From Trypanosoma brucei (Eukaryota), in contig CH464491.1 in NCBI GenBank assembly GCA_000002445.1, forward strand, positions 5,056,001 to 5,120,000: a stretch of DNA of 64,000 nucleotides. The letters run 5' to 3'. Shown here piece by piece: positions 2,285 to 63,284 of the stretch; position 1 is the stretch's first letter; each line of letters begins with the position of its first letter. Under the pieces are notes generated by a model that saw only the letters and a program-made list of their open reading frames with translations, was not told the origin of the DNA and made no database searches. The translations under genes were made by a program, and so were the position numbers.

Positions 2285-2520
2285 TTTTTTTCTCTTTTGT
2301 CGGTCCTATTTCTGTTCGGGCAGATTGTTCAAAAACTTAATTAAATTCGTTACCTCGGCCCAAAACAAAAATTAATTAAAAATAAAAAACCTAACACTAA
2401 AACCTACAAAAATCAACAGGAAAAAGGAGAAAAAATTTAGCAATCATCAAAAAAATTTGGTAGGCTCAGGTAGCCAATATATATATATATGTATATAACG
2501 ATTTCTCGGAGATTTTAAAG

Positions 2521-2539
2521 GGGTTAAAATATATCAAAT
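2521..2539 (-). promoter_or_regulatory. VSG 3'UTR 16-mer-like element (reverse complement of TGATATATTTTAAC..)
   Basis: gggttaaaatatatcaaat, immediately 3' of VSG 2571-4086. Confidence 0.7.
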
Positions 2540-2570
2540 AGCAAAGTTCGTTTAAAAATAGGGGAATTTT

Positions 2571-6033: not shown

Positions 6034-7458
6034 TTATGCTAGAAGCAAAAATGCAAGCCAAAGAGGCGCCTTGTTAACGACAAAAGAATTGCTTCCGGTG
6101 GTGTTTGTGTTTGTCGTTTTCCCATCTTTCCCTTCTTGGCAATCGTTTTCTCGCTTAGATTTCACCTCCTTTTTCAACTCACACTTTTTGTCTTTTTCGT
6201 TAAAAGTGCAGTCTTTATCCTTTAAGCTTTCACAGGCTTTTTGATCACCCCCTGCTTCATTGCAAACTTTTTTTGCCGGCTCTTGTGTTGCTTTGTCTGC
6301 TTGTTGGCTTAGAGCTTTTGTGGGTTGTGGCGGTTGAGTAACTTCGACCGTCGCTTGCAAGTATGTTCTCAACGCTGCTGTTTTTAAGTTTGTGACCTCC
6401 GCTGCAATACGAGCATTTTTGAGTGAGTTTTTGTGTGCTGCTTCCAGTCTGCTTATTGCCGCTGTGAACTTGCTGAGCCACGGTATTTGCAGCTTGCCGG
6501 TTGCATCTAACGCCTTATACAGCACGCAGTCTCCGTTGGCGGCGCCGTTGCATTGTGTCTCGTCGCCTTTGCCTAGCATTATTTTGCCTGCTGTCGTGGC
6601 GCCCGCTTTGTGTTTTAGTGCCGCCGTGAAAGTCGCTGCTGCTGCCTTTATGTCTGCTGCCGTCGTTTTTGTGTGTGGTATTAATGGGCATTTTTTTGCT
6701 AAGGCCGCCGCCGCCGTTGCCGACGCACTGGCCGTGCTGTAGGTAATGCCGCTTAGTGCTGTCCCGGTGCATGCTGGTGATGACCCTCCGCTCGCGGAAC
6801 ACAGGCATAGGAAATCGCTCATGAACGACCTGCCCGCCTCGCTGTTGCTGGGATCGTTGCCGCCGCAAGCTGTCGCTGCCGTGCCGTACGTCTTGCTTCC
6901 GGCCTTATCCTCGCCGGCTTTATCGCCGAAAAGAATGTCGTTAAAGTCGGCTTGTGCCTCTGCCTGGGTGGTTGGTTCGACTAAACCTTTTTCAAGTGCC
7001 TTAGCTTTTTCTAGACTGCAATTGATTAGCTTGTTTGCTGTTGTCCGCATGGGGCTGTTTGGTAGTCGAAGTATTTTGATGCTGTCTATTTCCAAGTTGC
7101 CAGCAGAGATGAGGTGCTTGGCTTTCTGCCATTTAGGCCTGTTTTCTTTGTACTGCTGTGGTTTATCGCCGTCACTTGAATCATCTTCAAACTTTTGGTC
7201 GTACATGCTGTCTTCTGCTGTAGAAAGGTTAAGTTCGATCAGCTGTTGTATCGCGCGCGTCACCTCTTCCTTGTCTTTTTGCTCTGGAAGATCTGCTTCT
7301 GCAGTTAGGATCTGACGGATGCCGCACATCATATTGAACGCTTGTGCGTTATCGTTAGCTGCTCCTTTGCAGCTGCCGGCAAGGAGTGTTATTGCTACCG
7401 CAATCTTAACTTCGGCTACCGATAGCCTTGGTGAGCTTTGAAAATTTTGTTTCTTCAT
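6034..7458 (-). CDS. Variant surface glycoprotein, apparently intact (B-type N-domain, NTNTTGS...LWLAFLLLA C-terminus)
   Basis: 474-aa uninterrupted ORF. Signal peptide VKIAVAITLLAGSC. Motif CGGNDPSNSEAGRSFMSDFLCLCSASGG...IPWLSKF typical of B-type N-domains. Cys-rich C-domain and GPI signal SNSFVVNKAPLWLAFLLLA. Confidence 0.9.
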   Translation of the reverse strand: MKKQNFQSSPRLSVAEVKIAVAITLLAGSCKGAANDNAQAFNMMCGIRQILTAEADLPEQKDKEEVTRAIQQLIELNLSTAEDSMYDQKFEDDSSDGDKPQQYKENRPKWQKAKHLISAGNLEIDSIKILRLPNSPMRTTANKLINCSLEKAKALEKGLVEPTTQAEAQADFNDILFGDKAGEDKAGSKTYGTAATACGGNDPSNSEAGRSFMSDFLCLCSASGGSSPACTGTALSGITYSTASASATAAAALAKKCPLIPHTKTTAADIKAAAATFTAALKHKAGATTAGKIMLGKGDETQCNGAANGDCVLYKALDATGKLQIPWLSKFTAAISRLEAAHKNSLKNARIAAEVTNLKTAALRTYLQATVEVTQPPQPTKALSQQADKATQEPAKKVCNEAGGDQKACESLKDKDCTFNEKDKKCELKKEVKSKRENDCQEGKDGKTTNTNTTGSNSFVVNKAPLWLAFLLLA

Positions 7459-9004
7459 CGCTTTCTTTGTTGACTATCTAAGTTTTATTGCTCCTTAAAT
7501 ACAAATAATTTGTCAGTTTCTGCTTGGGCCGCTGTTTGAATGTGCCGTTCCGCAGTGGCGGTGAGGGAACTTTTCCTAGTAAATGGCGAAAGTCTTTTAC
7601 ACTGGCTGATTTTTGTATGGAAGGGTAAAGGCAGAAAGCTACTTTGTCATGTATGCGCTAGATGTTCTGTCCGACTGCATAAAATGCAGCTTGCACTTTA
7701 TTTTGGGGTCGTAAAGTTGTGGCATAACCTTCAACCGCTTCCTTACTATATCTAAATCTAAAATGGTTATTAGTTAGGTGTCAGTCCGGCTTCACTTTGC
7801 TCCAGTGGCGTGTGTTATTGGTGCCGTCTGTTTGTCTTTTTGCCTGTTCCTGCTTAGTGAAGGTTGTTTCAATCGCTTTAGCAGCAGGCCGGTATTTTTT
7901 TGTTGTATTTTCGTGTAATACAAGGTGATATATCAGAACTTTAGTTGCTCTGACCGATTTTGCTGTAAATGTGTCTGTTTTTTTGGTGGTGTATTATTGT
8001 CTTTTTTGTACTTGGTTTCGATGAACAGATCGGAATAATAGCTATTGCAATTGTCGATGTGTTGTTTAGCACTCATTGAACTTCTTTATAATTTGAGTAA
8101 AGCAATCGAAGCGCCAGCGCCTTTTTGCCACAAGTTGTCCGCACTTGACATCGCTTGACGATGCTTAATTCGTTGCAGATTGTAAAGTCGTTTATGACAC
8201 GTGACTTGTTTTTGTCTTGTCTTATTGGTAGAGCCCTCTGTATAGGAGTAATCTTGTGCATTCCGTTGTAACGGGAGCCGATTTTTGGTCATTGCATTGG
8301 TGCCGCCGCCTTATGTTTCTCAGCGCCCTTGAACATCCTATCTGGTGCTGACTGTCGCAAGCAATTAAAAAAAGTACAAGCAAAAAAAGCTCGTGGGCCG
8401 CTTACTGGCTACTTCCCTTTTAAAGGCCCCCAACAATATATAATTCATTCCGCAAGACGTTTTTGATTGAATTTCTGATTTAATATTCGGATAGTGTGCC
8501 ATAATAGAAACGGCAATCAACACGACTGCCGTGACTTCATCTATTTTTCAAGTGATACACAAAAATTTATTTACTTCTTTTCTATTTTCCTCTACATCGC
8601 GGTGTGTTATAACGTATTATGTTGTTTGATCATGTACTATTTATTATGCTTCACCCGTGCTGCTTATTTCATGACAAAAACGTACCGATTGTATTTTTCC
8701 TGTGAAATGGACTCTTTTTATTCCTCATTTCTGGTTGCAGCATGTCCTTTTGTATAACAATACAAACTATCTTATTTATGCATGAAACTTGCGCATATTT
8801 CATCAGTCATCCTTTTTCATGACTTTGTACCCTTCAAAAATATTCTCTATGCTCTCTTTCACTCACACTCACTCTCTTGAACACATCTCACTTACTTACT
8901 CTAATTTCACCGTTGACATTGTTGTATAGTTTCTATTTAGGCCTTGAATTTAGTCATCACAGCTCTTTTGTAAAATTTTTGCATACATAGTGCCGAGATA
9001 ATCC

Positions 9005-9056
<52 letters not shown>
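9005..9056 (-). repeat. (TTA)16 tract: partial 70-bp repeat lacking the GT-rich core
   Basis: Perfect tta x16 at the cassette position where a 70-bp repeat is expected (1.5 kb 5' of VSG 6034-7458). Confidence 0.6.
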
Positions 9057-15694: not shown

Positions 15695-15770
15695 TACCAC
15701 CATTTTATCATGATGTTGGTATGCACTTACCGCGATCATTATTATTATTATCATCATAACCCTAAAATTA
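15695..15770 (-). repeat. VSG 70-bp repeat (degenerate)
   Basis: Preceded by the conserved ttttaaatgcttctattttt box; atcattattattattatcatcataaccc. Confidence 0.65.
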
Positions 15771-22879: not shown

Positions 22880-22975
22880 GTCACTATTAAAAATATTATT
22901 ACTATTACTATCTTACTATTGATATTATCATCATTATCATTACTATCACTATTATAACCGTAACTAATATCCATA
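22880..22975 (-). repeat. VSG 70-bp repeat (TAT/TCA-rich, degenerate core)
   Basis: attattactattactatcttactattgatattatcatcattatcattactatcactattataacc. Confidence 0.6.
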
Positions 22976-23189: not shown

Positions 23190-24644
23190 TTATGCTAGAA
23201 GCAAAACTGCAAGCAAAGGAAGAGCGTTGATTACAATAGATCTTCTCCCTGTTGAGGTTGTAGACACTTTTTTATTTGGAAAGCATTTCGGGTCTTTTTT
23301 CTCATCAAAATCGCAACCTTTTTCACCTTTGCAGGCTTGCTCCGTTGTATGCTTTTTGCATTCGTCTGCTGATTTTTTCGGTTCTTCTAGTTTGCCTGTT
23401 TTGGTTGGGCAAGAGGGGTTTTCTTGGTTTTTCTTTTTTTGCTCTTCCTCGTCGATAAAATTTTTGATAGTGTAATACGTCGCTGCTTTTGACAGCTCCT
23501 CAGGGGCGTTTATTGAATCAAGTTTTTTAGCGCCGTCTGAGCCTGCTGCTTTACTTGGCTGAAAGGTGTTCAGTAATTGGGTTATTTGTGTTTTGATTGA
23601 GTTTCTTTCTTTGCCGAAAAGTTCTTCGGTTGTGTGTTTAACTTTTTCCTTTAAATTTGGTTGCTCGGCTGTCGCTTCGTGGCCTCCCAAAGCTTTGGCT
23701 ATTGCGTGCCCTGCGGAAGCGGCATCAAAGGCGCTTTCAATGGTAGCAGGTGGTGTTATCGTGCCGAGTTGTGTTGCAGCGTGAACCATTTCAAGTACCA
23801 GCGCAAGTTCTGCTTTTATTGTCGCTTTATTGGGCGTCGTCGCATCGTCGCCGATTTCGTTGTAGGCAAGCGGGGCCGAGTCGCCTGTTGTGTGGGCAAC
23901 TGCTACCGTTGCCGTGAATACTTGCCCTCCTTTGAATCCTATGTTAGTTGCCTGGGTTGAAGTGCAGCTTGCCGTGTTTGGTGCGCCGCTGCTGACCGAG
24001 TTGCTGCCGCATATTGTTAGGTAGGTGCCGAGCGCGCTTCCTGGTGGTGTTGGTGTCACTGTCACTATCGTTATGGCGTTTTTGTGGTCTGCATTATGAT
24101 CGTCGGTGCTCGAGTCCTTTTCCCTGCTGTCGTCCTGTCCGACACAATGAGCTTTAAGAGCCGCGTCCAGCTTGGGCTTGAGTTGGCCTTTTGTCGCTGT
24201 CGCCGTGCTTGTCGTGGCTGTGGCCATATTTAGATCTTGTAGGTGCAGCTGTGAGAGTCTGCTGATTGCTTCCTGGCTCCCTGCGAGCCGGCTCAGCGCT
24301 TCGATGCCTTTTAATAACGCTGGGGTATTTGCGGCTAGCTTATCGTTTGCTTCTGCGGCTTTTTGAATATAAATTGAGCGCAGATAAGCTGCTGCCCAGC
24401 CCGCGTTTGTGTTAACACCGTTGGCGATGACGTCAGGCTTAGAAGCTGTAGTCAGCATCGTCTTGACAGCTTCTTGTGTGGATGTGATTTTGGTCCTTGC
24501 GGAGTCCGCCATCTGCCGCAGCTGCGTTGCTACGTCGCATGCGCTTTTAGCCTTTTTTGTTGGTGTTTTTACAGCTGAAGTTGTTACAACTGGTAGGCAA
24601 AGGGCTATGCTTACGAAAGTCAATGCCTTGAAGTTTGCCAACAT
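23190..24644 (-). CDS. Variant surface glycoprotein, apparently intact
   Basis: 484-aa ORF. Signal MLANFKALTFVSIALCLPVVTTSA. Ala/Thr-rich N-domain. C-domain ...ADECKKHTTEQACKGEKGCDFDEKKDPKCFP...IVINALPLLAVLLLA. Confidence 0.85.
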   Translation of the reverse strand: MLANFKALTFVSIALCLPVVTTSAVKTPTKKAKSACDVATQLRQMADSARTKITSTQEAVKTMLTTASKPDVIANGVNTNAGWAAAYLRSIYIQKAAEANDKLAANTPALLKGIEALSRLAGSQEAISRLSQLHLQDLNMATATTSTATATKGQLKPKLDAALKAHCVGQDDSREKDSSTDDHNADHKNAITIVTVTPTPPGSALGTYLTICGSNSVSSGAPNTASCTSTQATNIGFKGGQVFTATVAVAHTTGDSAPLAYNEIGDDATTPNKATIKAELALVLEMVHAATQLGTITPPATIESAFDAASAGHAIAKALGGHEATAEQPNLKEKVKHTTEELFGKERNSIKTQITQLLNTFQPSKAAGSDGAKKLDSINAPEELSKAATYYTIKNFIDEEEQKKKNQENPSCPTKTGKLEEPKKSADECKKHTTEQACKGEKGCDFDEKKDPKCFPNKKVSTTSTGRRSIVINALPLLAVLLLA

Positions 24645-32879: not shown

Positions 32880-32940
32880 TGATTATTTCGACCCACAGCA
32901 ATTTCTTATCATTATTATCATGATCATAACTAACATCCAT
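32880..32940 (-). repeat. VSG 70-bp repeat (degenerate)
   Basis: ttaactgcctctatttttatgattatttcgacccacagcaatttcttatcattattatcatgatcat. Confidence 0.55.
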
Positions 32941-45005: not shown

Positions 45006-46844
45006 TTTTTTCTTGTGTGGTCTTTCTTGTAAGGGGGTAACTCTATGCGGTAGGTTTGGCTTCACAATTGTTGACATTTTTATGTGATGTTAGACATTCG
45101 TCTCAATTCCGGTTTTTGCTATGTTTTCACTGCTGGTGGTCCGACAGATTCACCTTTTTTTATTTGAAAAGGAAGTTTATGACACGCGCCTCTAGTGGTT
45201 ATCCTAACGTTTGTCTCGTTTTTCAGTCGTCGGCGTTGGCTACTGTGCAGTCTGGTCCAATGTTTTTTTGCCGCTTGCGAGTGAGATTTTAAATTGCAGT
45301 CGAAACATCTTTTTCCTGTATTTCCCTCTCTCTCTATCTCTCCTATCTCCATATATTTTCCCTATGGTAAACACTCTCAATTCCGCATGTGGATTTGCTT
45401 CACTGAACTGCTGTAATATTTTCCCAAGTCACCATGACTCTCAGTACAAGTTTAGCAACTAGTTTGTCTGTTTTTGTGACCACGTCCTGACTAAAGTGAA
45501 GCTATTTTCTAGTTAGCTCCGTCGTTAGCCTCGTGTTTGCATTCAGATCATACGCTATTGCCGCTTCTAATATCGTAGTTAATCATGCTTCATAAATAGT
45601 TTCGGTTTTTGGATTCGCTTTGAGTGTATATAGTCTTGTTGTTGTGGGTGTGAATGCTTCTGGAATCCCTTTCGATACGTTTCTTTTAGCGGAGAAGAAA
45701 TTATTGCCTGGTGACAGTTACTTTGTAATCCAAAACTATAAGTTGCCTCCACTTAAAAAATTTCAAACCGTCTTTTTTTATCCATCAAATTTTGATTCAT
45801 TTTACCGCATCCCAGTTCCTGTATTTAAAAATCACTGAAAATTTTCTATTTCTAAATTTAAACATTTATAGCAGCTAGTGAATTATATATATATTTCAGT
45901 TTTATTTGTTTTTTTCGCGCCCATAATAGCAAATTAACGGTGGCTTTTTCACGAATCCGGTTGCTTTTCCGCTTTGGCTTCGTGTCGCGCTGTTCTGGTG
46001 TTTGCCGGGTTCTATTCTTAATACAGGGCACTTTTTCGCCAGAAAGTGTCGTCCCTTGTGCTTTTTCTTTGCTAACACGTGTGGGCTGCTACTGGTATGC
46101 TACCACATTTATATGGTCTACGTATTTCTCGAGTTATTCGGTGTGGCGCCTTTATAGCAATCCGGACACGCCGGTAGTTACCATTGATTCTCTCCAGTTA
46201 ATAAAGCTCTGCCAACAGTTTGTAAATTCATTATTTAAAGCAGTCTACAAATTTATTTTTTATTTTGCTTTATACTGTTCAAAACGTTGCCATAGCTTTA
46301 TAATTCTCCCCCATATAACATAAATTTTTCGGAAACAAATGTTGGCAACTTTTAATATAATAAATGAGAAAAAGACTGTGATATTGCCCCACAGTTACCC
46401 AATTTCTTATTCACAATTCTTATGATTTTGTTTCTTCTTCACAACTGGATATTAGGACCAGCTAGCAGACTAAAAGTCACAATCGATATCATTTACGACT
46501 GTTAATTTGTCTATTTGTGAGTTAAATCCATGGTATCATCAACAACTCGTCTTTATTGTTGTATATTATCTTTTTTCATCTTCGTTTGCTGCTGGTGCGA
46601 ATGACGTAGTGACTGTATTAAGCTGGTGTACTGGAATCCGTCGTTCCCTCACTGTCTCTTCCATCATCTCGATGTGTATGATAATGTCCATTGACATGTT
46701 TGTTGTTTTAAACATCGCATATTCCACATATTTTCCCCCTCTCATACTCCTCTTCACCCTTCAATTTTTTTATATACTCCTTGAACAATTTGTTTTGTTT
46801 AATGTTCTTCTATTTTTGTTGTCTATCTAATCTTAACTACCACT

Positions 46845-47075
46845 CTTATTATAATTTTCGTATACACACACTTACTACACTCTCCTATTATAATTATAAT
46901 TATCATCATTATCATCATTATCATCATTATCATCATTATCATTATTATCATCATTATCATCATTATCATTATTATCATTATTATTATTATTATTACTTCT
47001 CTTATTATAATATTTGTATATGCACACTCTCACAACACTCTCCTATCATTATCATTATTACTACTACTACAAAAC
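46845..47075 (-). repeat. Two tandem 70-bp repeat units with an expanded (TCATTA/TCATCA)n tract
   Basis: Core 1 ataattttcgtatacacacacttactacactctcc, then about 110 nt of tcattatcatcattatc..., then core 2 ataatatttgtatatgcacactctcacaacactctcctatcattatcattattactactac. Confidence 0.85.
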
Positions 47076-51522: not shown

Positions 51523-53254
51523 TTTGTGTTTAACTTGAGTTAGGATGGATCAAATGGGACATTCAAGTTGTGTCCGTATTGTTCCGGACACATGGGAACG
51601 TTGGTCTAATCAATGTGATTTGCGTGGCGCATAGTTACACAATCCAAACACAAAACAATATCTTCCCATTTCTACCTGCCCGTTCTATACCCTTTATCAT
51701 AAACTATTCTCTCTTTATCAAATACTCTCGATTGCCCATACAGCTTCGTTTACTTCACCATAGAAATATCTTTCCCAGTGGTCTTCGATTTAAGCACTAG
51801 TTTCTCAGTGTGTAAAGCTGTTTTTGTCATCTACAACTGATTAAAGTGCAGCTTCCTTTCAGTTAACTTATATGCTGTTCCCCTTTCCACTTGCAGTTCA
51901 TGCGCTATTCCTGAAGCTACTCTTGCAGTTAGTTACGCTCTGTAGATTATTTTTTTTTTGAATTCACTGTGTGTGCATATAGTAGTTTTGTTGTGTTTTT
52001 TGAATGCTATTGGACGCATTTTTGTATGACTTTTTTCTTCAATGTGCATATTAATGGGCGAAAATTTTACAATACACTAGCTAAGAGGAGGAAATGCGTA
52101 TATGCACACCATATCACATGGAATGATAGTCCGGAACTCAGCCCTGGAGAACGAGGCACTAACCACTAAAACCCTCTTAGGTGGAGGTTATTGCCTACCC
52201 ACATCGACAGTGGCTTGTGACAAAGAGTCGCACGGTGGTCTAAAAAGACGGCCTCCTTTTCGGCCTGCTACTCCGCCTATAGCTTCTGTGGCATCTAACC
52301 CTGCGAAGTCAGCCGCTAGCTGTAAAGCTAGTGGCGCGTATGCGACTTTGATTGACTCCCTTTGAACAGGGTCCTTAACTGCGAAACATGAAGTAGCCAC
52401 TTTTTCTCGGAATGATTTGCGCTACACATACATAAATATCTTCAACGTCCAAAAGTACACTTGCCCTGGCGCCACAGACATCACTCACTGTAACTGATAT
52501 GCCAGTGTTCGTGTGGTAACAGTTAGTTTCCCCTGAAAATTTTAATTCTTCCTGGGTGCTAGACCCTGACACCACGATGAGGCTGCTAACACTAACATCA
52601 CATAATATGCTTTACTTTGAGTAGCTTCAGTGTTTTCATTCTTCTTTTTCTATACACGGTAATTCATTTGTAGTCTCATGTTTAAAATAATACTCATAGT
52701 ATTATTTTGTTTGGCGAAAATATTGGTATTTATTATTATATCTGATGAGTAAAAGAATTTTATATTACTTACTACACTTACGTAATTCCTTCTTTCTGCT
52801 CCTGCATCTACTACTTCTTCACGGCTAGGTATTAGGTTCCACCATCTCATTAAAAACATATTTATCAACATTTATAAAATAGAATCTATCACTTTGTGAG
52901 TAAAATGTGAAGTACATTATCTTTATGTATTATTTTCTTCTTTTGTGTGCTGTTTTTTATTCTGCCATTTCACCATGTTTTTCCCCTAATTTTTTGCGTA
53001 GCTTTGCTTCTTTTGTAGGTAGCTTACTGACTTTATTTGGCTTGCAAACTGGACTCCGCCTTTCCTTCATTTACATATCCATCATCTCCTTGTGTAAAAT
53101 AATGAGTTGTAATCACATTTGTGTTAAAAAAACGCATATTCTATTTCCCTTTCTTCCTCTCTTTCACTTACTCTCTTACTCGAGTTACACAGTTATGTCC
53201 TTTATATCTTTTAATGCTTTTATTTTCAGTCTACAGTCGTTCTCCACCATCATC

Positions 53255-53440
53255 CTCATAATAATATTCGTATACACACACTCACAACACACTCCTATTA
53301 TTATTAATATTATTATCATTATTATTATTACTGCTGTTATTATAATATTCGTATACACACACTCACAACACTTTCCTATTATTATTAATATTATTATCAT
53401 TATTATTATTACTGCTGTTATTATAACTATAAATGATGTC
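53255..53440 (-). repeat. Two near-identical tandem 70-bp repeat units (about 86 bp each)
   Basis: ataatattcgtatacacacactcacaacac(a/t)(c/t)tcctattattattaatattattatcattattattattactgctgttattataa occurs twice head-to-tail. Confidence 0.9.
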
Positions 53441-53630: not shown

Positions 53631-55481
53631 CTAAATTACTACTAAACTCACAAAATCAGCATCTATAAGAGCCAATTTCTTATTTAAATTAAAGCTACTA
53701 TTACGGTTCTTTTCTGTTTCCTTTTCATCTTCACCCTCTTTTCCCTTCCTCCATGCACAATTTTGTTTATCGCCTGTTTTGTCATTTTCACAAACTGCCT
53801 TATCAGTTCCGTGTTTTGCACATCTAGCTGAAGCTCCATCTCCTGTTGTTGTTCCTGCGGCTGTTCCTACTGTCCCTCTTTTAGGTTTACATTCCATTTT
53901 TTATCATATTCGCATCCGTTGTTTGTGCAATTCGTTTCATTGTTGTTGAATATAGCGCATTTATTATGTTCCTCTACTATGGGTTCTGTGACTCCCCCTG
54001 CTGGTGTGTTGGCACTTTCCGGTGACGTACATGTCAGCCGTACGCAAAAAAGCTTCCATTTGCGTAGCAATTGTCTCTGATTCTTTTACCTAGGCTGCGG
54101 CTGCCCGTGCTTCGTTACTGATTTGTGCTAACTTTTGTTGAGCATCCTGGAGCGCTTTGATCCATGCTATATTTTTTTCATGTTTCAGTAATTTAACGTA
54201 GTCTATGAAATTCCCTTTGTTTGCGGTTGCTAAGTCGGAGCCGCCGGTGTGGTCGCATGTGGTTTGCGACGTGGATGCCACATTGTACGCGCCGAATAAA
54301 GCCCTGTGTTTGCCGGCGTGCGTTGCCGCATTTCCCAGGCTTGCCTGCGCGATCCAGTTAGTCCCCAGGTCAGCGTGAAAATTTTCACTTGCCGCAACTA
54401 TGTTTGTGCCTGTGACCTCCGTTTCTGCCGTTCTTGCGGCTGCTTCGCACGCGCCCGCCAGCATCTTAAATGCCGCTTCTGCTTTCGGCTGATTCCCCGA
54501 ACCCGCGTTAAAGTCTCCCGCCACTGCAGGTGCCGTGCCGCACGGGTTTTCTTGTGTCGAGTGGGCGGTAACACACAGACAGAGCAGATCTGTTGCTAGT
54601 GCCTGTTCGACTTGGTCCGCTGTCTATGTTGCTTTTTTGCATGTGGTTACTCGGGTCGATGAGTCCTCCCAAGGGAATTTCTTGTTTGTTGGTTGTGCAA
54701 ACGCTGCATCTGGTTCAGTGAGCGAGTTTATTGTTGTTGCTGCTCCGCTGCCGTAGGGCACGGTAAGTAGCGCTTTTCGTGTTTGAAGCCTTGTTGTTGT
54801 TATTGTGGCGTCTAATTTGTTTACTTCTGTATTAATCTTTTCTGTGTCGGCTGCCAGTCTCGCAAGTTTTGGTTTGAACATTCTTCTTTTGCTTTCACTG
54901 AGTGGGAGGCCATACTCCGCGTTGAATGCCTTCAGTTACTCATTGTTCTCTTGCATGTCGTTGTAATCTTTGATCATGGCGTCAAGTAAGTTGCTGTCTA
55001 TTCCGGCAAAAAGATTTTTGACTGGACTGCTCTCTTCCTGCAACTTGGCTGCTGTGCCGTACTTTTCCTTTGCTTTTAGAGCCTCAGTCATTTGAGGCTC
55101 TGCCGCCGTTAAATTTAGGTTGATTATTTTTGCTGGGATAGGTTTCATTCTGCTCTTGGAAGTTTCTGCTTGGTTAGCTAGACCGATTACCGCCATTTTT
55201 GGCTCAGGTGGCACCGCCGTTAAAAGTTTGTAAATTACACAGAGATCCATGAACTCTTTCGCTTTCTCACTGGTGCTGTTCGCATATCCCAATGTGAGAG
55301 TTGTGATGAGAACCAGCTTCGTAAACAGCTTCGCGAGTATTTGTGTTTTTATTTCGCTATTCGGAAAAGTAAATTGTGGGAAGTTAAAAGTATAAAAATT
55401 CTGCGTAACATATGAGGAAAAATGAATTGTTTTTGGCTTCAGTTTCTGTGATATTGAAGAGGTCTTAAAAACAGCACTCAT
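53631..55481 (-). pseudogene. VSG pseudogene (A-type N-domain; multiple frame breaks)
   Basis: Signal-like KLVLITTLTLGYANS in 54936-55481. N-domain 54090-54524 (...CDHTGGSDLATANKGNFIDYVKLL...). C-domain pieces at 53867-54070 and 53631-53897 (...SSFNLNKKLALIDADFVSLVVI). 3'UTR at 53562-53581. Confidence 0.8.
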
Positions 55482-56425
55482 TTAAGCAAAATAATCTTCT
55501 AATTTTGAATCTAACCTATAGCATTCTATATCTATATCTGAAAACACTTAATATTTATGGTTCTCAATCGTTTATATCATATGCCAATTTTTCACCTTGT
55601 TCTCACTTTAAATAACCGAGTAATTCTGCATCTACAGGACGCAATTGATCTTGCATTTTGTTTGGAATCATATGGTAATAATTTTAGTCAAAGGCGTTTG
55701 GAAATGGGTAATTTTTGGCCAGAAAGAGCCATTTTTTCAGTTTTTACTTAAGGCAAGGTGCATATTGTGGCTTAAAAACATATTTTCATGAATTATTCGC
55801 TTTTTTAAAGGTCTAAATGCCTTTCGAAAATACTAATACGGAATTAGAAGAGTATCAGCATAAACTTTTTAATACTCATATAAAGCTGCTCCATTGGTTT
55901 ATATACGCGCTGTATTCAGTAATATCTAAGTTATTACTCTTTTACTGTCCAGGATAATCTATTAGTAGTTATTGTTTTAATATTGCCCTCCCAGTAATAT
56001 TATATTGTTTCTCACAAATGTTAGTCATTACTATAATTAATGAGAAAAAGACATTGATGATACCTCACTTTTACGCAATACCTCCTCTCTGTTCCAGCTC
56101 TTTCCTCTTCACAACTTGGAATTAGAATCCGTAATCAGCATAAAAATTAGAGTTCGCACCATCACAGCCGTTAAAAATATTCCCTTCTTTGCCAAATACA
56201 CAACATCAATGTCTCATATGCCCCACCTGATGTATTATTTTCTTCTACTTTGTGCTGTACTGTCATTTCACCCAGTGATGTATCTCCTCCTTTTTATTTT
56301 ATACTTCTCTTTTTTTTACTGCGAGAAACATAGAAATGAAACTTCCCACTTACACTGTTTTTTCACTTACTCAACACCTTGTCTATAATGATTTGAATAC
56401 TCGTTTTTGTGTTTCAAACAGTACA

Positions 56426-59400
56426 TATTCCGGGTGACGCCGGCCACTCCATCGTGGTTCCAGGGTCTAGTACTCCGTCCAGGAGGGAGCCAAGTGGCCG
56501 CATTAAACAAGGTCCGACAGGATTGGGGCGTGCAATAGGTTTTCGGCGACCAGGGAAGGAGCAAGCAGAAGCATCGGCACTCTGAGGTGAAGAAATATAT
56601 TATACTTCCCTCTGCATGTGCGAGCGTGCATCCATTGGGACACATAGGCTTTTACTCTTCTTAGCAGAGATGTGAAACAGAGTGCCGGTCCCGTCACTTG
56701 TAGAGCCCAGTAGAACTCTGGGGGTATCTCACATGCGAAGCGGATAGCTTTAGAGAAGAAGCTCCATGAGGACATGGTTTTATTTTCTTGCAGGAGGGAC
56801 ACTTGGCCTCGGTGGCGCGTGCCGCATTAAAAATAGGTGGATACCAATACATGGGGATAGCACGTTTTATACATGGTTTTGGGGTTTTAAATCTAGTGAG
56901 AGATGGCGTGGGATTCATCCAACGTCCGAAGGAGGAGGGTCTGCCGAAAAGAGCCTTGGCAACACTGATGTTTTAATCTGATCTTATGTTAACTATAAAA
57001 ACAGCTTACGTCCCACAGAAGAACAATAGTACTATCTCCACGCTTGAGAACCTTGAGAGCTCACCTGGATCACTAATAATAAGATCAGATACAAACGCAC
57101 ATCACGAGTTATGAGACCAGCTTCGCACAAATGATATTGCAGAAAAAAGTGCTGTAGACTGGTGTTTACAAAATGATATCAAAATTGTAAATGATGGCAC
57201 ACCAACGAGAAGAATGGCTCACATGGCAACAATGCCGTCTCCCGACGTCACGATGTACAGAGACTGTGAAGTCACAAGATTGGATAGAAGGCTCAGTCCA
57301 GATAGTGACCATTACTGGATAACGTTTGAGGTGTGTGTTGGCATTGGTGTATAAATGATCACCATCACCAAGCCGTGAGGGGAGTTGTATACTTAGAGCA
57401 AAGAAAATTGGCGGTAGTTTAGAAAAGTGTGTGATGTAACTATGTTGAAAAAATTAAGGAAATCGAGAAAGTGCGTGGATGCCATCAATGAAGAAGTGAC
57501 TAAAAGCATTCGAACAGCAGCAAAGAAAATCATACCGAATAGTTAAGGAAGTATCGTCACAGTTCTAGACACGATAACTGACAGAAGTTGACACAAAAAT
57601 AAGGGAATCTACAAATGAGAAGCAAAGAGAGATGCGCTTATATACAAGAGAAGGAAGGTCCTCGCCGACGCATCCTTAAAATGGTGGAAGGAAAATATGT
57701 TTAAGATGTTAGTGACCGATACAAAATGTTGGAATTTAGTTAACTCCATGTATGCACCGAGATCACTGACATCTCCTGTTCTGGTAGTGAATGACCACCA
57801 TCTAACACGCAGAAAGTAAGCTAATAAGCTGGAAAATGTATAGAGAGAGATCTGTTGACAAAAGCACCAGATGATCCTCCTATGAGTATAGCATATTGAG
57901 TAAGCGGAGAAATCGCACAAATAACGATGACAAAACTTGAGACAGAACTGAACGAACTCTTTTCAAGCACTGCCCCCTGTAAGGGAAATATACATTGTGA
58001 ACAGTTGAAGCAATTATGCCACTGTAGCAAGAAATGCGTCACAAGCTTTTAAACTGTAGCCTACAGAAACACCGAGTGCAGGAAAAATTAAAGCAGGGTG
58101 TTTTTATCTCACTACTCGAACCCAACAAACTCGCCAAGTGTGTGCTGTCGTTCCGGACCATCACGCTCACTAGCACACTCTGTAAACTCAAGGAAAGGAT
58201 TATATTGAGATTAATATGACACACAGTAGAACGTAGGCTACAACCACAGCAAGTTGGCCTTTTTCCAGGGAGGTCTACGTTAGACGCTGTAATGACACTC
58301 ACAGACTTAGTGAAACATAGAGTAGCAGGAGAGACAACTGCCGCTGTATTCATGGGTTATGCGAGAGCATTTGACTCTGTGGATCACAGGCGCGTATTAA
58401 ATGCATTAAAAAGATACGAGGTAGACATGCACCTCATTGCATTGGTTGCAAACTTTCTGGAGGGATGGACTGCAGTAGTACGAATAAGCAACACCTTCTC
58501 AAAGAAAAAAAATACAGCTCACATGTGGTATTTCACAAGGGTCCGTGTTGGGGTCGTTGCTATTCATTATCGCAATGGCCTCCCTCATAGCGAGATTAAA
58601 TGTCATACCAGCCCTTAAATACTGATTTCTTGACAGATGAAATCACGATAGTATGCTCTAACAGCGACAGAGAAGCTATTCAGCAGAAGGTACAACCAGG
58701 ATTAAGTTGTATAGCGAACTGGTCAGCGAAGCACTATGTGGAGGTGTATGCAGAAAGATGGTGGTATACGTTCTTTGTGGTGAGAGAAAGAGACTCATTA
58801 AACCTAAAGCTGGGACAGTACAGGTTAAATTAGACGAGAAATCCCAGACCCCTTTAAATGATAATGCAGCCACACAAAAATGTAATCAAACATACTCACA
58901 CCCTACAAACAAAAGCAAATATGAGATTAATGAAACTAAGTGTTGTTGTATCACATGAATGGGGGCGAGTAAAAACGGCGTCTGAGCATCTTAATTAGCC
59001 TTATTCCAGGCGATGTTATGCTATGGTATCGCAGTATGATGATTCAATGCTTCTCCTTCAGAAAAGGAGAACCTTGAACAAGTACAAGCGCAGGCGTCAC
59101 ATGTCATCGCGGGGATTCCAAAGTATGTGAATCGGGAAGATATTGTGAATGAGGCCCGTTTTCACACGATAGATAATATTGCTCACAGACAAGCAATAGA
59201 ATACCATTTAACAAGGAAGGCAAACGGTAAGGGATTAGCCAATACAGTGGAAAAAATGTTCCCACCCGGTCATCCTATACACGCAACTGCATAGTGTGTC
59301 GCACCTGTATGTGGAAGTAGACAGACCTGAGAAACCACACACGGCAAGCGTATTGTAACTAGTGAGGAGACCTTACGTCAACACCATAACATCAGGTGGT

Positions 59401-60030
59401 CTTCATTCTGACGCTTCTGGCAGAAAGAAAAATTAACACACATTGCAAAGAGTAGATAGATTCAGACTACGATCATCAAGTGTGGACGGGTCAGTTGGTG
59501 ATACTGAACGAATCATCTGGTGCCGGTGCGAAAATATACTCTAGACAAGGTAAAGCGGAAAAAGTGAAGAAAGGGGCAGGAAGGTTAGCGTGCAGCTACA
59601 GAGCATAGTGTGTAGCCATGGAGGCAAGACTTATGAAGCTTAAGTCAGTAACAAAGATCAACGAGAGTAAAAACCGAAAGTGGCAATATTTACAGACTTG
59701 TTATGTTTATTAATGGCACTAAAAAAAGGTTCTGAGGTAGTGACGGATTCCATATTCTGGCGCATATAGAATCTGATCATACACTTCATGAAACTTCGAG
59801 TAGACATGTCGTTTCAGTTTGTATTTTCATATTGCGGTATCCCGAGAAATGTTAAATTGGACGAGCTCGCAAACAAAGGAAACCACATGCCGTCAATTTG
59901 TAGTTCACAGATCACCAACATTGTCACAGGTATAACGCGCCAGTTATGTAATTAAGCACAATGTGACTTTGCGGAAGGCTGAGACCTAAGCACACACCGC
60001 AGCGTTTTACTAAACCATATACAACAAAAA
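56426..60030 (+). mobile_element. Degenerate ingi/DIRE-like non-LTR (LINE) retrotransposon; 3' boundary uncertain (+/-150 bp)
   Basis: GC-rich 5' block (ccggccactccatcgtggttccagggtctagtactccgtccaggagggagccaagtggccgc) resembling the RIME/ingi 5' end. Endonuclease-like segment at about 57000-57350. RT motifs in broken frames: ...ITLTSTLCKLKERII (58034-58219) and FMGYARAFDSVDHRRVLNALKRY (58292-58618). A-rich tract about 60020-60040. Cassette flank sequence resumes at about 60040-60170. Confidence 0.75.
58034..58958 (+). pseudogene. Reverse-transcriptase domain of the ingi/DIRE element, frameshifted
   Basis: Three overlapping ORFs (58034-58219, 58292-58618, 58600-58958) carry non-LTR RT motifs: RPISL-like ITLTSTLCKLKERII and a xxDxxKAFDxVxH-like FMGYARAFDSVDH with the first Asp replaced by Gly. 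Confidence 0.7.
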
Positions 60031-60300
60031 CAAAAAAATAAGGAGCTAGATTGTGAAGTTGAGTCAATGTTAGCTCAATTTAGAACAGGGACTCCAAAAC
60101 ATTTTGGATGGTTACATAGGGTGATCATAAGAACAGTTAACAAACTGGAGTGTAGATGGTGTGCAAAACACACGGAGAGCATTCTCAATACTCCCTAACC
60201 ATATTACATTACAACAACAGGTCACTATCATATACATCTACTATTTTTTCACTTTTTTCATTTTTTTCATTATTTTCAAATAATCGAAAAGGTTTTACAA

Positions 60301-60322
60301 ACGTGTTAAAATACATCAAATT
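60301..60322 (-). promoter_or_regulatory. VSG 3'UTR 16-mer-like element
   Basis: acgtgttaaaatacatcaaatt, 70 nt 3' of VSG 60392-61744. Confidence 0.7.
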
Positions 60323-60391
60323 TTACCAAATTTAATAAATTTACAAAATTGAGAAAAAATATTCAAAATACATTAATCCTTATAATGCTAC

Positions 60392-61744
60392 CTAACTCAC
60401 AAAAGGAATAGCAAAAATAAAAAATTTCTTATTTGGAGCAAAACTGGACTCTTTGCATTCTTTTCCTTCCCATTGGCAACCATTTTCTTCACAGTCCTTC
60501 TTTTTTTTGAGCTTGTCGCATTTTTCCGTTTCTGAACCTGACGGTTTTGCTGTTTGGGCGCTGTCCACCGGCAACGGTGCATCTCCTGAAATTGCCCGCA
60601 GATACGCTGACAGTGCTGTTTGTTTGAGGTTTACAACTGCCCTATAAATTTCTCCATTAGCAAGAGCGTTTGTTTTGGCTTCTTCCACCTTCTGTTCTGC
60701 TGTTTCGAGCGCTTCGAGCCACGGTATAGGTGTGTGCCCGTCCGCTGGTGTGGGTTTGTAATAGACGCAGAGACCTTGGGCGCCGCCGTTGCATTGTTTG
60801 CTGTCCTCTGCACCTAGTATGTTACCTTCGGCTTGTGTGTTTTTGCCATTCTTCTTCAGGGCTGCTAGAAATGTTGCCCTGGCCGCTGCAGCCGCTGCTG
60901 CGTTGAATTTTACTCCTTTTGCCTTTGGGCACTTTTCTAGCAGCTTGCCGTACGCTGTCGCCGCGGCGTTTGGGTTTGTGTACTGAACGCTCGCCCCCAC
61001 GTTTGCCCCCGTGCACTCTTCCCCATTGCCGCCGTTTGCTGCACAGAGACAGACGAAGTCGGCTGCGAGGCTGGCGCCTGAGTTTTGGCTAGTCGGGTTG
61101 CTGCCCCCGCATGCTGAATCTCCAGTTGATGGGAATGGCTTGTCAGCGTCACTTGTTAGTGCTCCGCTCTCGCCAAACAGCACTTTGTTTTGGAGATCTT
61201 TTATTGCTGTGGCCGTTATTTTAGGTTTGAGTTCTTTCTGCTTTTCAAGTGCCAGCTCTAGTGTCCGGTTTATAATCGTCGCTGCGACGTTCCTTTCATG
61301 GCTTGGCCCGGGGTGCATTAGCTTTACTTCGTCGATCACCGTGTCGCCCTTGTCGATTAATTTTTTATTTTTTTCCCACGTGTCTCTGTTGCCCTTCCAG
61401 TGTTTTGATTCCTGAGCTTCGTCTGGTTTTTGCTCGAAAGAAAGTTTGTAGAAGCTTTCTGGCGCCACCGAAAGATTGAGCTGTTTTATAATTTCTAGGA
61501 TCGCTGGGACGCTTTCACCTTTTTCCTCCGTGTCGACGTCAGGCGGAGAAGACGCTATACTAATTACTGCTGAAAGAGCATCGAAAACTATGGCATTGTC
61601 ATTGGCCGCTGCCGCTGATTTGTCCGCTGTGGGGGCTAAAATTTCGATTATTGTGGCTACTTTCCTGAGCATGTCTTTGGTTAATTGTTGTCGATGAGAG
61701 AAGACTATGGCGAGGGCTAGAGTTTCTCGGTCTTGGTATTTCAA
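60392..61744 (-). CDS. VSG (B-type, paralog of the 6034 VSG); ORF intact but atypical N- and C-termini, possibly nonfunctional
   Basis: 450-aa ORF. ...AAANDNAIVFDALSAVISI... aligns with AANDNAQAFNMMCGIRQIL of the 6034 VSG, but the conserved Cys is absent. Shared CGGSNPTSQNSGASLAADFVCLCAANGG...IPWLEAL. Ends ...CQWEGKECKESSFAPNKKFFIFAIPFVS rather than ...FVALLF. 3'UTR at 60301-60322. Confidence 0.75.
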   Translation of the reverse strand: MKYQDRETLALAIVFSHRQQLTKDMLRKVATIIEILAPTADKSAAAANDNAIVFDALSAVISIASSPPDVDTEEKGESVPAILEIIKQLNLSVAPESFYKLSFEQKPDEAQESKHWKGNRDTWEKNKKLIDKGDTVIDEVKLMHPGPSHERNVAATIINRTLELALEKQKELKPKITATAIKDLQNKVLFGESGALTSDADKPFPSTGDSACGGSNPTSQNSGASLAADFVCLCAANGGNGEECTGANVGASVQYTNPNAAATAYGKLLEKCPKAKGVKFNAAAAAAARATFLAALKKNGKNTQAEGNILGAEDSKQCNGGAQGLCVYYKPTPADGHTPIPWLEALETAEQKVEEAKTNALANGEIYRAVVNLKQTALSAYLRAISGDAPLPVDSAQTAKPSGSETEKCDKLKKKKDCEENGCQWEGKECKESSFAPNKKFFIFAIPFVS

Positions 61745-63284
61745 ACAGATTTCAGTTGTCGTCCCTACTTTAAATACTGATACCGCTGCCTCTGCCGCGT
61801 CTCCAGGTTTCCTTTGGGAAAAAGTGTTTGCTTATAGCTAGCCGAAATGCTCCACTACATTGAACACGTTGGATGCAAGTTGGGGCCAGCGGTTGTGGTG
61901 AACCCATCAGCTCGCGGTTGCACATACGCGGCCTCTGTGGCCCCTGTATCCAGTGTACACGTCTCCGTTTCTGTGTACTGTAGCTTTGTGAGACGTGCTT
62001 GCTGCCTTGACTGCTTAAAGCGTGTTCTTTCCATTTGTATTAACGACGCCGCACAGACACCGCTTGTCATCCATTTTTTTGCATATGCCCAAATCGCCTC
62101 CGTTTCTTTTCCCTCCTCCATCGGCTCTAAAAGACGTATATGAACCTTGGAAACCTTTGTTATGATGCTTTGTGACGAACACTAGGACCTGCCAGTAGAT
62201 TTAAAGCCACGGTCTTGGTTTTCACTGCAGTTGCATACTTTTCTGGGTGAACTAAAACTGTCTTTGGAGTTTGTCATGAGGGCCCCACACAGGAACCCTA
62301 AGTTATTTTTCAATCTTAGTTCCTTGGCGCGCAGCGAGCTTAGCCCCGTATTCTATGTATTTTATTCTTCTGTTTGTTTGCGTACATTTTGAGCATTGAG
62401 AAGGACTAAGTTCCACTTTTTTCCTATGGACTAATTGCAATTGAAAAATGCAGACTTTTACTTCTTCAATTTTTACAATGCATTTCTACGTTTGTCTAGT
62501 ACATATTGCTTTCTTTTTAGTTTAAAGGTATCGAAATCTGTTAGTAATGTGAAATAATTATATGAACTAATATTTTTAATACTTTGTATTTGTTAAAATG
62601 AACTTAATTGCACTCTTTTAAACACCTCATTGTCAATACACTAAATTTTCCATTTAAGGTGCGGTTTTAAAAAGCAAGTGGTTAACTTAGTTCTAAAAAA
62701 AACGAAAAGCTTTCTTCTTCGTAATAACTTTACTAATTTGGCTGCTTGTTTTTTCACCAACACTAAGTGTCTCTAAACTATCTGATGATGAAACGCTTTT
62801 ATTTCTACTTTTATGTTGCAGGTTTGATGCATTATTTTTCTTTCTCCTAACACTTCTAAATTTGGTTCTTTTTTTGTTTCTTCTTCAGAGCGATAAACTC
62901 TGATAAGTGTTGTACTTGTGAACAAAATGTAAGTCTTTTACAGATGAAGTATCTGTAATAGATTGCTCTATATCAGTTATTAAGAACAAAAGTGAAATAA
63001 TGCGTCCTTCCAGGATTTCTTGGAAGCGGACTCGAAGTGAAACTCTTAAGTGTCTTACACTTATACTGCTTTTTTGTATTAAGTATTGAGGCTTCATTTT
63101 CCCGTGCATTTGTTTGGCCCTCTTCATCACCCTCTTCTCTATCTTCTTGCCCGTGAGGCAGCGCGTCGTTATGTTTCTTTTTGAAAGTGCACATACTCCA
63201 TCTCCCTCTCTTTTTCGCTTACTTACTCCCATTGTATCCTTGCCACTACTTCGAGTGCTTTATTTTTATATGTTAATTTAGTCT

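What the first reader, a model, noticed from the sequence alone, without database searches (positions are those of the whole stretch)
56090..60322. ingi/DIRE-like retroelement sits exactly where a cassette's 70-bp repeat should be
The 5' flank of VSG 53631-55481 follows the usual module: CTTCACAACTTGGAATTAGAATC box at 56104-56160, then sequence homologous to 52880-53250 up to about 56425. At the point where other cassettes enter the 70-bp repeat core, the GC-rich RIME-like 5' end of a non-LTR element begins. On the far side (about 60040-60300) the usual post-repeat spacer (aaataaacaaa...attagaatagcactc-like, ...aggtcactatcatatacatc) resumes and leads into the next VSG's 16-mer. This cassette is the only one in the window without any 70-bp repeat. 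The element's RT has lost the first catalytic Asp (FMGYARAFDSVDH) and is frameshifted, so it is an old insertion. Either ingi targets or replaces 70-bp repeats, or the fragile repeat was deleted on insertion.
Basis: partly seen in the sequence, partly recalled or inferred. Interest (0 to 1): 0.55.

Follow-up and report, generated by a model that had tools for sequence, protein, structure and literature searches.

The report
Truncated DIRE retroposon replacing a 70-bp repeat
A dead, tail-less copy of a known trypanosome retroposon (a TbDIRE) lies between two silent VSG pseudogenes where about 2 kb, including that cassette's 70-bp repeat, is missing; this is an ordinary fossil of insertion plus deletion and gives no sign that retroposons target the repeat.

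Summary
The window is a Trypanosoma brucei brucei TREU927 VSG array on a 5.26-Mb contig, probably chromosome 11. All VSGs lie on the - strand.

At 56430-~60186 (+ strand, antisense to the VSGs) lies a degenerate ingi-clade retroposon. It is colinear, to within 9 nt, with nt 1-3741 of a 5423-bp T. vivax Tvingi. Its 5' end is complete and in exact register. The last ~1.67 kb, the poly(A) tail and any target-site duplication are absent.

This is the only one of 18 inter-VSG intervals with no trace of a 70-bp repeat. The RT is dead (motif A D->G, frameshifts).

"Exactly where the repeat should be" is not correct.
- The element starts at the end of a conserved flank block. In the 17 other cassettes that block lies 94-183 bp before the repeat.
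- The post-repeat spacer resumes at ~60180, not 60040, and has lost its first ~50 bp.
- 60040-60165 is element coding sequence.

Most likely history: a normal retroposition about 140 bp from the repeat, then a ~2-kb deletion that removed the element's tail, the repeat and adjacent flank. That joint may carry a 7-11 bp microhomology. Capture of the element at a break in the repeat is a weaker rival.

TbDIREs are a known kind of element. Interest is low.

The parts
53631..55481 (-). VSG pseudogene whose upstream 70-bp repeat is missing
   Evidence: Broken into ORFs of 181, 85, 144 and 88 aa on the - strand. GC-rich VSG-type composition.
56061..56429 (+). Conserved pre-repeat flank of the cassette. 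It includes the CTTCACAACTTGGAATTAGAATC box (56106-56129) and ends in the block ...TTTTTGTGTTTCAAACAGTACATATT (56377-56429).
   Evidence: nhmmer with the 17-cassette flank profile, nodes 2-342 of 506, E=2.2e-29. Pairwise 72% identity to 52770-53141. The block sub-profile scores 23-24 bits, while the repeat-proximal part of the flank scores -2.7 bits.
56418..56429 (+). The 12 nt that would be the 5' copy of a 12-bp target-site duplication (ACAGTACATATT), preceded by A at -13
   Evidence: Inferred from the 12-bp TSD rule of the ingi clade (PMC3820030). No second copy lies near the 3' end. The ingi6 upstream signature is matched at 4 of 6 positions; background P(>=4)=0.083.
56430..60186 (+). 3'-truncated degenerate ingi-clade retroposon (a TbDIRE of the Tvingi/Tcoingi type), corresponding to nt 1 to ~3741-3760 of a ~5.42-kb element
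   Evidence: tblastx and blastn show colinearity with Tvingi L001:4971-10393, nt 1-3741 to 56430-60165, with offsets of at most 9 nt. The T. brucei paralog P0057 aligns to 60186. Best protein hits are T. vivax and T. congolense ingi-type RT and RNase H at 46-53% identity.
56430..56508 (+). 5' hallmark (Pr77 / 79-bp signature), complete from nt 1
   Evidence: Unique match of the hallmark core at 56439-56467, 0 expected. 74% identity to Tvingi nt 1-434 starting at nt 1.
56995..57321 (+). C-terminal half of the APE-type endonuclease domain (degenerate)
   Evidence: Pfam Exo_endo_phos_2, E=8.5e-6, 26.1 bits, just under the 27.4-bit cut-off. Colinear tblastx HSPs.
58043..58965 (+). Reverse transcriptase domain, frameshifted twice. 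Motif A has D->G (FMGYARAFDSVDH) and motif C reads LTDE.
   Evidence: Pfam RVT_1, 38 bits. tblastn frames 2/3/1 and motif alignment with ten homologs.
59465..60165 (+). RNase H domain and the conserved ...FRTGT.KHFGWLHRV...LECRWC motif. This is the last part of the ORF that is present.
   Evidence: 52% identity to T. congolense P0056 (Pfam RNase_H). Homologs continue for up to 190-241 aa beyond CRWC, with C2H2 zinc fingers. In Tvingi, 1665 nt follow CRWC before the poly(A) tail.
60176..60190 (.). Deletion or truncation joint. The bases CATTCTC(AATA) can be read as either element or spacer, so they are a possible 7-11 bp microhomology.
   Evidence: Element protein homology to the T. brucei paralog reaches 60186. 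The spacer profile begins at 60180/60181. The length of the overlap is inferred, because no DNA of a T. brucei reference copy was available.
60180..60464 (+). Post-repeat spacer lacking its first ~50 bp, running into the 3' end of the next VSG. The 16-mer is at 60303-60318.
   Evidence: nhmmer with the 17-cassette spacer profile, nodes 75-389 of 391, E=2.4e-29. In the other cassettes the block starts 9-76 bp (median 54) after the repeat. 16-mer with 1 mismatch.
60392..62300 (-). Next VSG (pseudo)gene in the array. The upper coordinate is approximate.
   Evidence: 450-aa VSG-like ORF at 60392-61744 lacking its N-terminus.

Best explanation
An ingi-clade retroposon of the Tvingi/Tcoingi type (now a TbDIRE) retroposed full-length into one cassette of a silent VSG array, antisense to the VSGs. 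It landed in a conserved flank block about 140 bp on the VSG-proximal side of the cassette's 70-bp repeat.

A later deletion of roughly 2 kb then removed:
- the element's last ~1.67 kb (the zinc-finger part of the ORF, the 3' UTR and the poly(A) tail);
- the 3' target-site duplication;
- the remaining ~140 bp of flank;
- the 70-bp repeat(s);
- the first ~50 bp of the post-repeat spacer.

The two ends were joined at 60176-60190, possibly through a short microhomology. The element has since decayed and has no function.

The practical consequence is that VSG pseudogene 53631-55481 has lost its own upstream recombination handle. The nearest upstream repeat is now at 63296.

Shown: the element's identity, its boundaries, its colinearity with Tvingi, which cassette parts are missing, and the absence of TSD and poly(A). 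Inferred: the order of events (two steps) and the joining mechanism.
For: - 5' end: it is complete and in exact register with nt 1 of a TSD-flanked, poly(A)-tailed Tvingi. This is what a genuine retroposition junction should look like.
- Insertion site: A is present at -13 and -12, and 4 of 6 positions of the ingi6 upstream signature match (signature from PMC3820030).
- Colinearity: Tvingi nt 1-3741 map to 56430-60165 with at most 9 nt of drift. No homology to Tvingi nt 3742-5423 is found up to 60500.
- Missing tail: homologous proteins continue 190-241 aa beyond CRWC.
- Cassette structure: both conserved blocks that flank the repeat occur in all 17 other cassettes, at 94-183 bp and 9-76 bp from the repeat. 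In this cassette they abut the element directly. The ancestral cassette therefore almost certainly had a repeat between them.
- No 70-bp repeat signal, no TSD and no poly(A).
- Joining mechanism: microhomology-mediated joining is the predominant end-joining route in T. brucei (PMC2377438).
Against: - This model needs two events where a one-step model needs one.
- The ingi6 signature match is weak: P(>=4 of 6) is 0.083 at random positions.
- The microhomology rests on a 4-of-6-residue protein match to one T. brucei paralog (HTESIL against HTGNIL), not on DNA.
- No empty-site or untruncated allele could be examined.
Confidence: 0.6

Rival explanations
1. One-step capture at a break. A double-strand break in or near the fragile 70-bp repeat was resected by ~140 bp on one side and ~50 bp on the other. 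It was then patched by endonuclease-independent retroposition. The right-hand DNA end primed reverse transcription internally on the element RNA at nt ~3750 through a short microhomology, and the full-length cDNA end was ligated to the left-hand end. The repeat was therefore lost at insertion.
For: - Absence of a TSD, 3' truncation without poly(A) and loss of target DNA are the classic features of endonuclease-independent LINE-1 insertions (own knowledge: Morrish et al. 2002; not checked here). All three are observed.
- A possible microhomology lies at the 3' joint.
- 70-bp repeats contain unstable (TAA)n tracts thought to be break-prone (PMC3467770).
- Only one event is needed.
Against: - Such events are rare compared with ordinary target-primed insertion.
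- The 5' junction has the A/A of the ingi6 nick-site signature and a T-rich stretch upstream. Under this model that is coincidence (P~0.08).
- Break-proneness of 70-bp repeats is documented for the active expression site, not for silent arrays.
Confidence: 0.15
2. Ectopic recombination. The right-hand joint arose by unequal exchange, gene conversion or segmental duplication between this array and another locus. The exchange placed the next cassette (spacer plus VSG 60392-62300) directly against an internal point of the element. It was not a simple local deletion.
For: - VSG arrays evolve by frequent recombination.
- The net structure (element truncated, spacer entered mid-way) is equally produced by such an exchange.
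Against: - There is no extended homology between the element interior and the spacer that could drive homologous exchange; only <=11 bp is shared.
- The array's periodicity and strand are undisturbed on both sides.
Confidence: 0.15
3. The retroposon family specifically targets 70-bp repeats or their immediate surroundings, so the co-location is systematic.
For: - The conserved pre-repeat block carries an ingi6-like signature (A/A plus >=2 T) in 9 of 17 other cassettes.
- An ingi immediately 3' of the 70-bp repeats is recorded in Lister 427 expression site BES2 (PMC2567434).
Against: - There is only one element in 18 cassettes of this window.
- Its 5' end is ~140 bp from where the repeat would begin, not in it.
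- The repeat-side junction is a truncation, not an insertion junction.
- The signature is short and common in AT-rich DNA.
Confidence: 0.05

Closest known systems
TbDIRE (degenerate ingi/L1Tc-related element) of T. brucei, ingi6-related group (Bringaud et al. 2006, 2009, 2011; PMC3820030)
   Same: - 5' hallmark present.
- Order of APE, RT and RNase H domains is the same.
- Heavy degeneration.
- Closest relatives are Tvingi and Tcoingi.
- Found in the very genome (TREU927) in which 73 TbDIREs were catalogued.
   Different: - 3.75 kb instead of ~5 kb, because the 3' ~1.67 kb, poly(A) and TSD are missing.
- Assignment to the ingi6 group rests on best hits and a weak signature match, not on a phylogeny.
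Tvingi of T. vivax (5419 bp, 1752-aa ORF). The reference copy used here is L001:4971-10393.
   Same: Colinear from nt 1 to nt 3741 with at most 9 nt of drift. About 50% amino-acid identity, and 74% nucleotide identity over the first 434 nt.
   Different: Tvingi copies are potentially active, with poly(A) and a 12-bp TSD. The window copy is dead and lacks its tail.
Tbingi/RIME (ingi4 subclade), the active T. brucei retroposon pair
   Same: Same clade, and the same kind of 5' hallmark.
   Different: - No Tbingi protein appeared among the 106 hits of the two protein searches. These searches depend on shared 5-residue words, so this is weak evidence.
- The ingi4 upstream signature is matched at only 4 of 10 positions, P=0.28.
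ingi element 3' of the 70-bp repeats in Lister 427 expression site BES2 (Hertz-Fowler et al. 2008, PMC2567434)
   Same: A retroposon lies between a 70-bp repeat region and a VSG.
   Different: That element sits beside an intact repeat array in a telomeric expression site. Here the repeat is gone and the locus is a silent internal array.
Microhomology-mediated joining deletions in T. brucei (Glover et al. 2008, PMC2377438)
   Same: A deletion joint with a possible short shared sequence, in an organism where end joining is predominantly microhomology-mediated.
   Different: Those junctions were produced experimentally at I-SceI breaks. Here the microhomology is inferred from protein-level evidence only.

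Membership tests
ingi-clade non-LTR retroposon | Conserved 76-79-nt 5' hallmark (Pr77) at the extreme 5' end | tested here: met
   The hallmark core is unique in the window, with 0 expected. nt 1-434 of Tvingi align to 56430-56856 at 74% identity, in register from nt 1.
ingi-clade non-LTR retroposon | One long ORF with APE endonuclease, reverse transcriptase and RNase H, in that order | tested here: met
   Pfam Exo_endo_phos_2 (E=8.5e-6, just below the cut-off) and RVT_1 (38 bits). RNase H region 52% identical to P0056 (PF00075). The order is colinear with Tvingi. The ORF is broken by many stops and frameshifts.
ingi-clade non-LTR retroposon | C-terminal C2H2 zinc-finger region, 3' UTR and poly(A) tail | tested here: not met
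   Homology stops just after CRWC, at Tvingi nt 3741. Nothing matches Tvingi nt 3742-5423. There is no A run at the 3' end. The sequence from 60180 onward is VSG spacer. This is explained as truncation of a member of the family, not as evidence against membership.
ingi-clade non-LTR retroposon | 12-bp target-site duplication | tested here: not met
   ACAGTACATATT has no copy with <=2 mismatches near the 3' end. No flanking direct repeat was found.
[quoted passage not shown] | Long ingi-related element with an ORF too degenerate to encode a protein | tested here: met
   49-83 stops per frame and a longest open stretch of 132 codons. RT motif A D->G and motif C ADD->TDE, with multiple frame changes. 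Length is 3.75 kb against ~5 kb because of the 3' truncation.
ingi6 subclade (Tvingi/Tcoingi/TbDIRE2 group) | Phylogenetic position with Tvingi/Tcoingi | tested here: inconclusive
   Best hits are T. vivax and T. congolense ingi-type proteins at 46-53% identity, plus a protein named Tcoingi. No tree including Tbingi and L1Tc was built.
ingi6 subclade (Tvingi/Tcoingi/TbDIRE2 group) | Upstream signature TTTTxxxxxA^Axxxxxxxxxxx | tested here: inconclusive
   TGTG TTTCA A^A for an element start at 56430, which is 4 of 6 positions. Background P(>=4)=0.083.
Tbingi/RIME (ingi4 subclade) | Upstream signature AxxxxxxxTxxxGTxGGxTxxx^xTxTxxTxxxxx | tested here: not met
   4 of 10 positions, none of them in the TSD part. 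Background P(>=4)=0.28.
VSG cassette 70-bp repeat | GT-rich core (TATACACACACTCACAACAC on this strand) followed by a TAT/TCA triplet run, located between the conserved pre-repeat and post-repeat blocks | tested here: not met
   The nhmmer repeat profile (E<=10, filters off) gives no hit between 53430 and 63296. TRF gives none. The repeat-proximal ~140 bp of flank and ~50 bp of spacer are absent too.

The most novel reading that the evidence does not exclude
The conserved block ~140 bp from the 70-bp repeat, present in every cassette, is a preferred nick site for ingi6-type endonucleases. If so, retroposons landed next to 70-bp repeats recurrently, and the repair or deletion events they provoked are a systematic route by which archive VSGs lose their repeats. 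Alternatively, this joint is a fossil of a break in a silent-array 70-bp repeat that was patched by retroposon cDNA.
Probability: 0.1. Interest if true: 0.45.

Novelty: already known. Interest (0 to 1): 0.15.

Why it matters
It matters little beyond annotation. It gives exact boundaries for one of the ~73 catalogued TbDIREs of TREU927. It explains why one VSG pseudogene cassette lacks its 70-bp repeat, so that VSG can only be reached by segmental conversion or by conversion starting at the next repeat, ~7.8 kb upstream. It also removes the suggestion that retroposons home to 70-bp repeats. If the break-repair reading were true, this would be a rare natural record of repeat fragility in a silent array.

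Tried and rejected
1. I rejected this alignment. Separate sub-profiles give 23.2 bits for the mid block against -2.7 bits for the repeat-proximal part. nhmmer and the pairwise alignment agree with the sub-profiles.
2. Reading 60040-60180 as spacer. The best spacer-start match there is CAATTTAGAACAG at 60076-60088, at -3.7 bits. It lies inside the conserved FRTG codons. A pairwise alignment that extended to 60153 runs through the cross-species conserved CRWC codons, so I judged it a chance match.
3. A weak resemblance between P0057 ...NYTATTQNN and the window's PYYITTTGH downstream of the joint. I judged it chance (an ACA-rich stretch), because the spacer profile fits that stretch strongly.
4. 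Fetching other T. brucei copies or alleles. Exact look-ups of P0057, two VSG ORFs and a DIRE ORF found nothing.
5. Rfam on 56300-56800 gave no relevant family.
6. Checking the ingi6 signature on more T. vivax copies. Two further loci (L002, L004) hold copies without the first ~60 nt of the hallmark; in the third (L003) only a reverse-strand match to the element's 3' end was found, and no 5' end.
7. Bringaud et al. 2009 (PMC2756862) is not held in the library.
8. The third protein-database search, structure prediction and the collection scans were not used. None of them could reach T. brucei DNA.


Full report
**Setting.** The window is a silent VSG array. All VSG (pseudo)genes lie on the - strand. 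The reverse complement of the 16-mer and the cores of the 70-bp repeat recur on the + strand about every 3-4 kb. Two intact VSG ORFs (6034-7458 and 23190-24644) are identical to XP_829784 and XP_829785 of Trypanosoma brucei brucei TREU927, on a 5.26-Mb contig. The window is therefore TREU927, presumably chromosome 11.

**Cassette map.** I built a profile from 15 in-window 70-bp repeats and ran it with all filters off. It hits 17 inter-VSG intervals. Thirteen hits are strong (E<1e-9). Four are partial remnants, at 8983, 15705, 22925 (E=0.15) and 32891. Nothing is found between 53430 and 63296, and TRF finds no triplet run or repeat there either.

I then aligned the 450 bp before each repeat and the 330 bp after it for the 17 cassettes. 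Both flanks are conserved. A block ...CATATTTGTGTTTGAAACTGCGCATATT ends 94-183 bp (median ~137) before the repeat in all 17 cassettes. A block CACTCATTTTTCATACCCTATCACC... begins 9-76 bp (median 54) after the repeat in all 17. That makes 18 cassette boundaries in the window.

**The element.**
- Between 56430 and ~60186 the base composition switches: AT skew is positive there and negative in most of the rest of the window.
- Three-frame translation on the + strand gives Pfam RVT_1 (38 bits) and Exo_endo_phos_2 (E=8.5e-6).
- A stitched RT query finds T. vivax and T. congolense ingi-type reverse transcriptases at 46-53% identity, and one unnamed sequence at 63%.
- A stitched RNase H / C-terminal query finds the same organisms, plus two TREU927 ORF fragments at 66-68% identity (P0057, P0103).
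- No Tbingi protein appeared in either search.
- RT motif A reads FMGYARAFDSVDH where the homologs have F(I/M)D. Motif C reads LTDE instead of FADD. The RT and RNase H regions each run through several reading frames.
- Each + strand frame holds 49-83 stop codons.

It is one element in a genome for which 73 TbDIREs of ~5 kb were catalogued (PMC3820030 Table S1).

**Boundaries.** I fetched a full-length T. vivax Tvingi as a ruler: L001:4971-10393. It is 5423 bp, has a poly(A) tail, and is flanked by the 12-bp duplication CAAGGAAATAT(C/T).
- Tvingi nt 1 corresponds exactly to window 56430 (CCTGGTGACGCC against CCGGGTGACGCC).
- The first 434 nt are 74% identical.
- tblastx HSPs run colinearly to Tvingi nt 3741 = window 60165, with a cumulative offset that never exceeds 9 nt.
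- Nothing in the window up to 60500 matches Tvingi nt 3742-5423.
- In Tvingi, 1665 nt lie between the CRWC codons and the poly(A) tail.
- Homologous proteins carry up to 190-241 further residues, with C2H2 zinc fingers.

The window copy is thus the first ~69% of an ingi6-type element. Its 5' end is complete and its 3' end is truncated. The stretch 60040-60165 encodes ...LAQFRTGTPKHFGWLHRVIIRTVNKLECRWC, which is conserved in T. vivax, T. congolense and T. brucei copies.

**Left junction.** The 17-cassette flank profile matches 56106-56431 at nodes 2-342 of 506 (E=2e-29). The pairwise alignment with the neighbouring cassette runs 56061-56430 against 52770-53141 at 72% identity. That alignment ends 114 bp before the neighbour's repeat at 53256.

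A MAFFT --add alignment suggested instead that the flank ends 7 bp from the repeat. I tested this with separate sub-profiles. The mid block scores 23.2 bits on 56377-56429, while the repeat-proximal 130 bp scores -2.7 bits. The element therefore begins right after the conserved block. About 140 bp of flank that normally separates the block from the repeat is missing.

The 12 nt before the element (ACAGTACATATT) would be the 5' copy of a target-site duplication. They have no second copy near the 3' end. The published ingi6 upstream signature TTTTxxxxxA^A(x11) (PMC3820030) is matched at 4 of 6 positions, including both A's. This happens at 8% of random positions, so it is only weak support.

**Right junction.** The spacer profile matches 60180-60464 at nodes 75-389 of 391 (E=2e-29). 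The first ~50 bp of the spacer gives no signal anywhere in 59950-60260. Protein homology to the T. brucei paralog P0057 runs to 60186 (CRWCAKHTESIL against CRWCTNHTGNIL). The bases CATTCTC(AATA) at 60180-60190 can therefore be read as element or as spacer. That makes them a possible microhomology of 7-11 bp. The evidence is protein-level and thin.

**Interpretation.** Relative to a standard cassette, the following are absent:
- ~140 bp of flank;
- the repeat(s);
- ~50 bp of spacer.

Relative to a standard element, the following are absent:
- ~1.67 kb of 3' sequence;
- the poly(A) tail;
- the 3' duplication.

The simplest history that uses only common processes is this. An ordinary target-primed, full-length insertion occurred at 56429/56430, antisense to the VSGs. 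A ~2-kb deletion then ran from inside the element across the repeat into the spacer. The ends may have been joined by the microhomology-mediated route that dominates end joining in T. brucei (PMC2377438). I give this about 0.6.

A one-step alternative is capture of retroposon cDNA at a resected break in the fragile repeat. It fits the absence of a TSD, the 3' truncation and the target loss equally well. However, such events are rare, and it makes the nick-site-like 5' flank a coincidence (about 0.15). Ectopic exchange with another locus could give the same structure (about 0.15). Systematic targeting of 70-bp repeats is not supported (about 0.05):
- there is one element in 18 cassettes;
- the insertion junction is ~140 bp away from where the repeat would start;
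- the repeat-side junction is a truncation, not an insertion junction.

**Consequences and comparison.** The element is a decayed fossil, and I propose no function for it. VSG pseudogene 53631-55481 (broken into four ORFs) has lost its own 70-bp repeat. The next repeat upstream in VSG sense is at 63296. A retroposon next to 70-bp repeats has a precedent: the ingi 3' of the repeats in Lister 427 BES2 (PMC2567434).

Membership of the ingi clade and of the DIRE class is supported by the hallmark, the domain order and the degeneration. The missing poly(A), TSD and zinc-finger region are explained by truncation. Assignment to the ingi6 group rests on best hits and remains formally inconclusive. The ingi4 (Tbingi/RIME) upstream signature is not met.

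**Verdict.** The feature is a known kind of element with an ordinary, though neatly reconstructable, history. Interest is low.

Noticed in passing
window 1-64000: Two intact VSG ORFs (6034-7458 and 23190-24644, - strand) are identical to XP_829784 and XP_829785 of T. b. brucei TREU927 on a 5.26-Mb contig. The second has >90%-identical relatives named VSG 597 (Lister 427) and VSG 1125.4869 (EATRO1125).
   Followed up: partly
window, 18 sites, e.g. 53041-53141, 46624-46724, 56377-56430: Every cassette carries a conserved block ...CATATTTGTGTTTGAAACTGCGCATATT ending 94-183 bp before its 70-bp repeat. Every cassette also carries a second conserved block, CACTCATTTTTCATACCCTATCACC..., 9-76 bp after the repeat. 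What these blocks do is not known to me.
   Followed up: partly
window 8983-9055, 15705-15761, 22925-22947, 32891-32936: Four cassettes keep only partial or degenerate 70-bp repeats. At 22925 only a triplet run is left (E=0.15). Repeat erosion is therefore not unique to the DIRE cassette.
   Followed up: partly
window 46846-47069 and 53261-53426: Two cassettes have two repeat units. At 46846-47069 the two cores are separated by a 111-nt (TCA/TTA)n tract (46885-46995). At 53261-53426 two 81-bp units are 97% identical.
   Followed up: no
window 60244-60278 and 60317-60350: Short 9-bp tandem arrays (TTTTTTCAT x3.9 and CAAATTTAC x3.7) lie in the spacer just right of the element. The second overlaps the end of the 16-mer.
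   Followed up: no
window 56361-56372: A TCACTTACTC motif lies before the conserved block in the DIRE cassette, whereas in other cassettes it lies between the block and the repeat. This motif is what misled the MAFFT --add alignment. It is probably chance.
   Followed up: partly
L001 1-13206 (T. vivax SOPI01000420.1): Two Tvingi elements lie in tandem and share one 12-bp target-site duplication, CAAGGAAATAT(C/T). They sit directly upstream of HSP90 gene fragments.
   Followed up: partly
window 56430-60186: The element's hallmark, which is an internal promoter in L1Tc according to the literature, points antisense into the next VSG pseudogene (60392-62300). Whether it drives antisense transcripts was not examined.
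   Followed up: no
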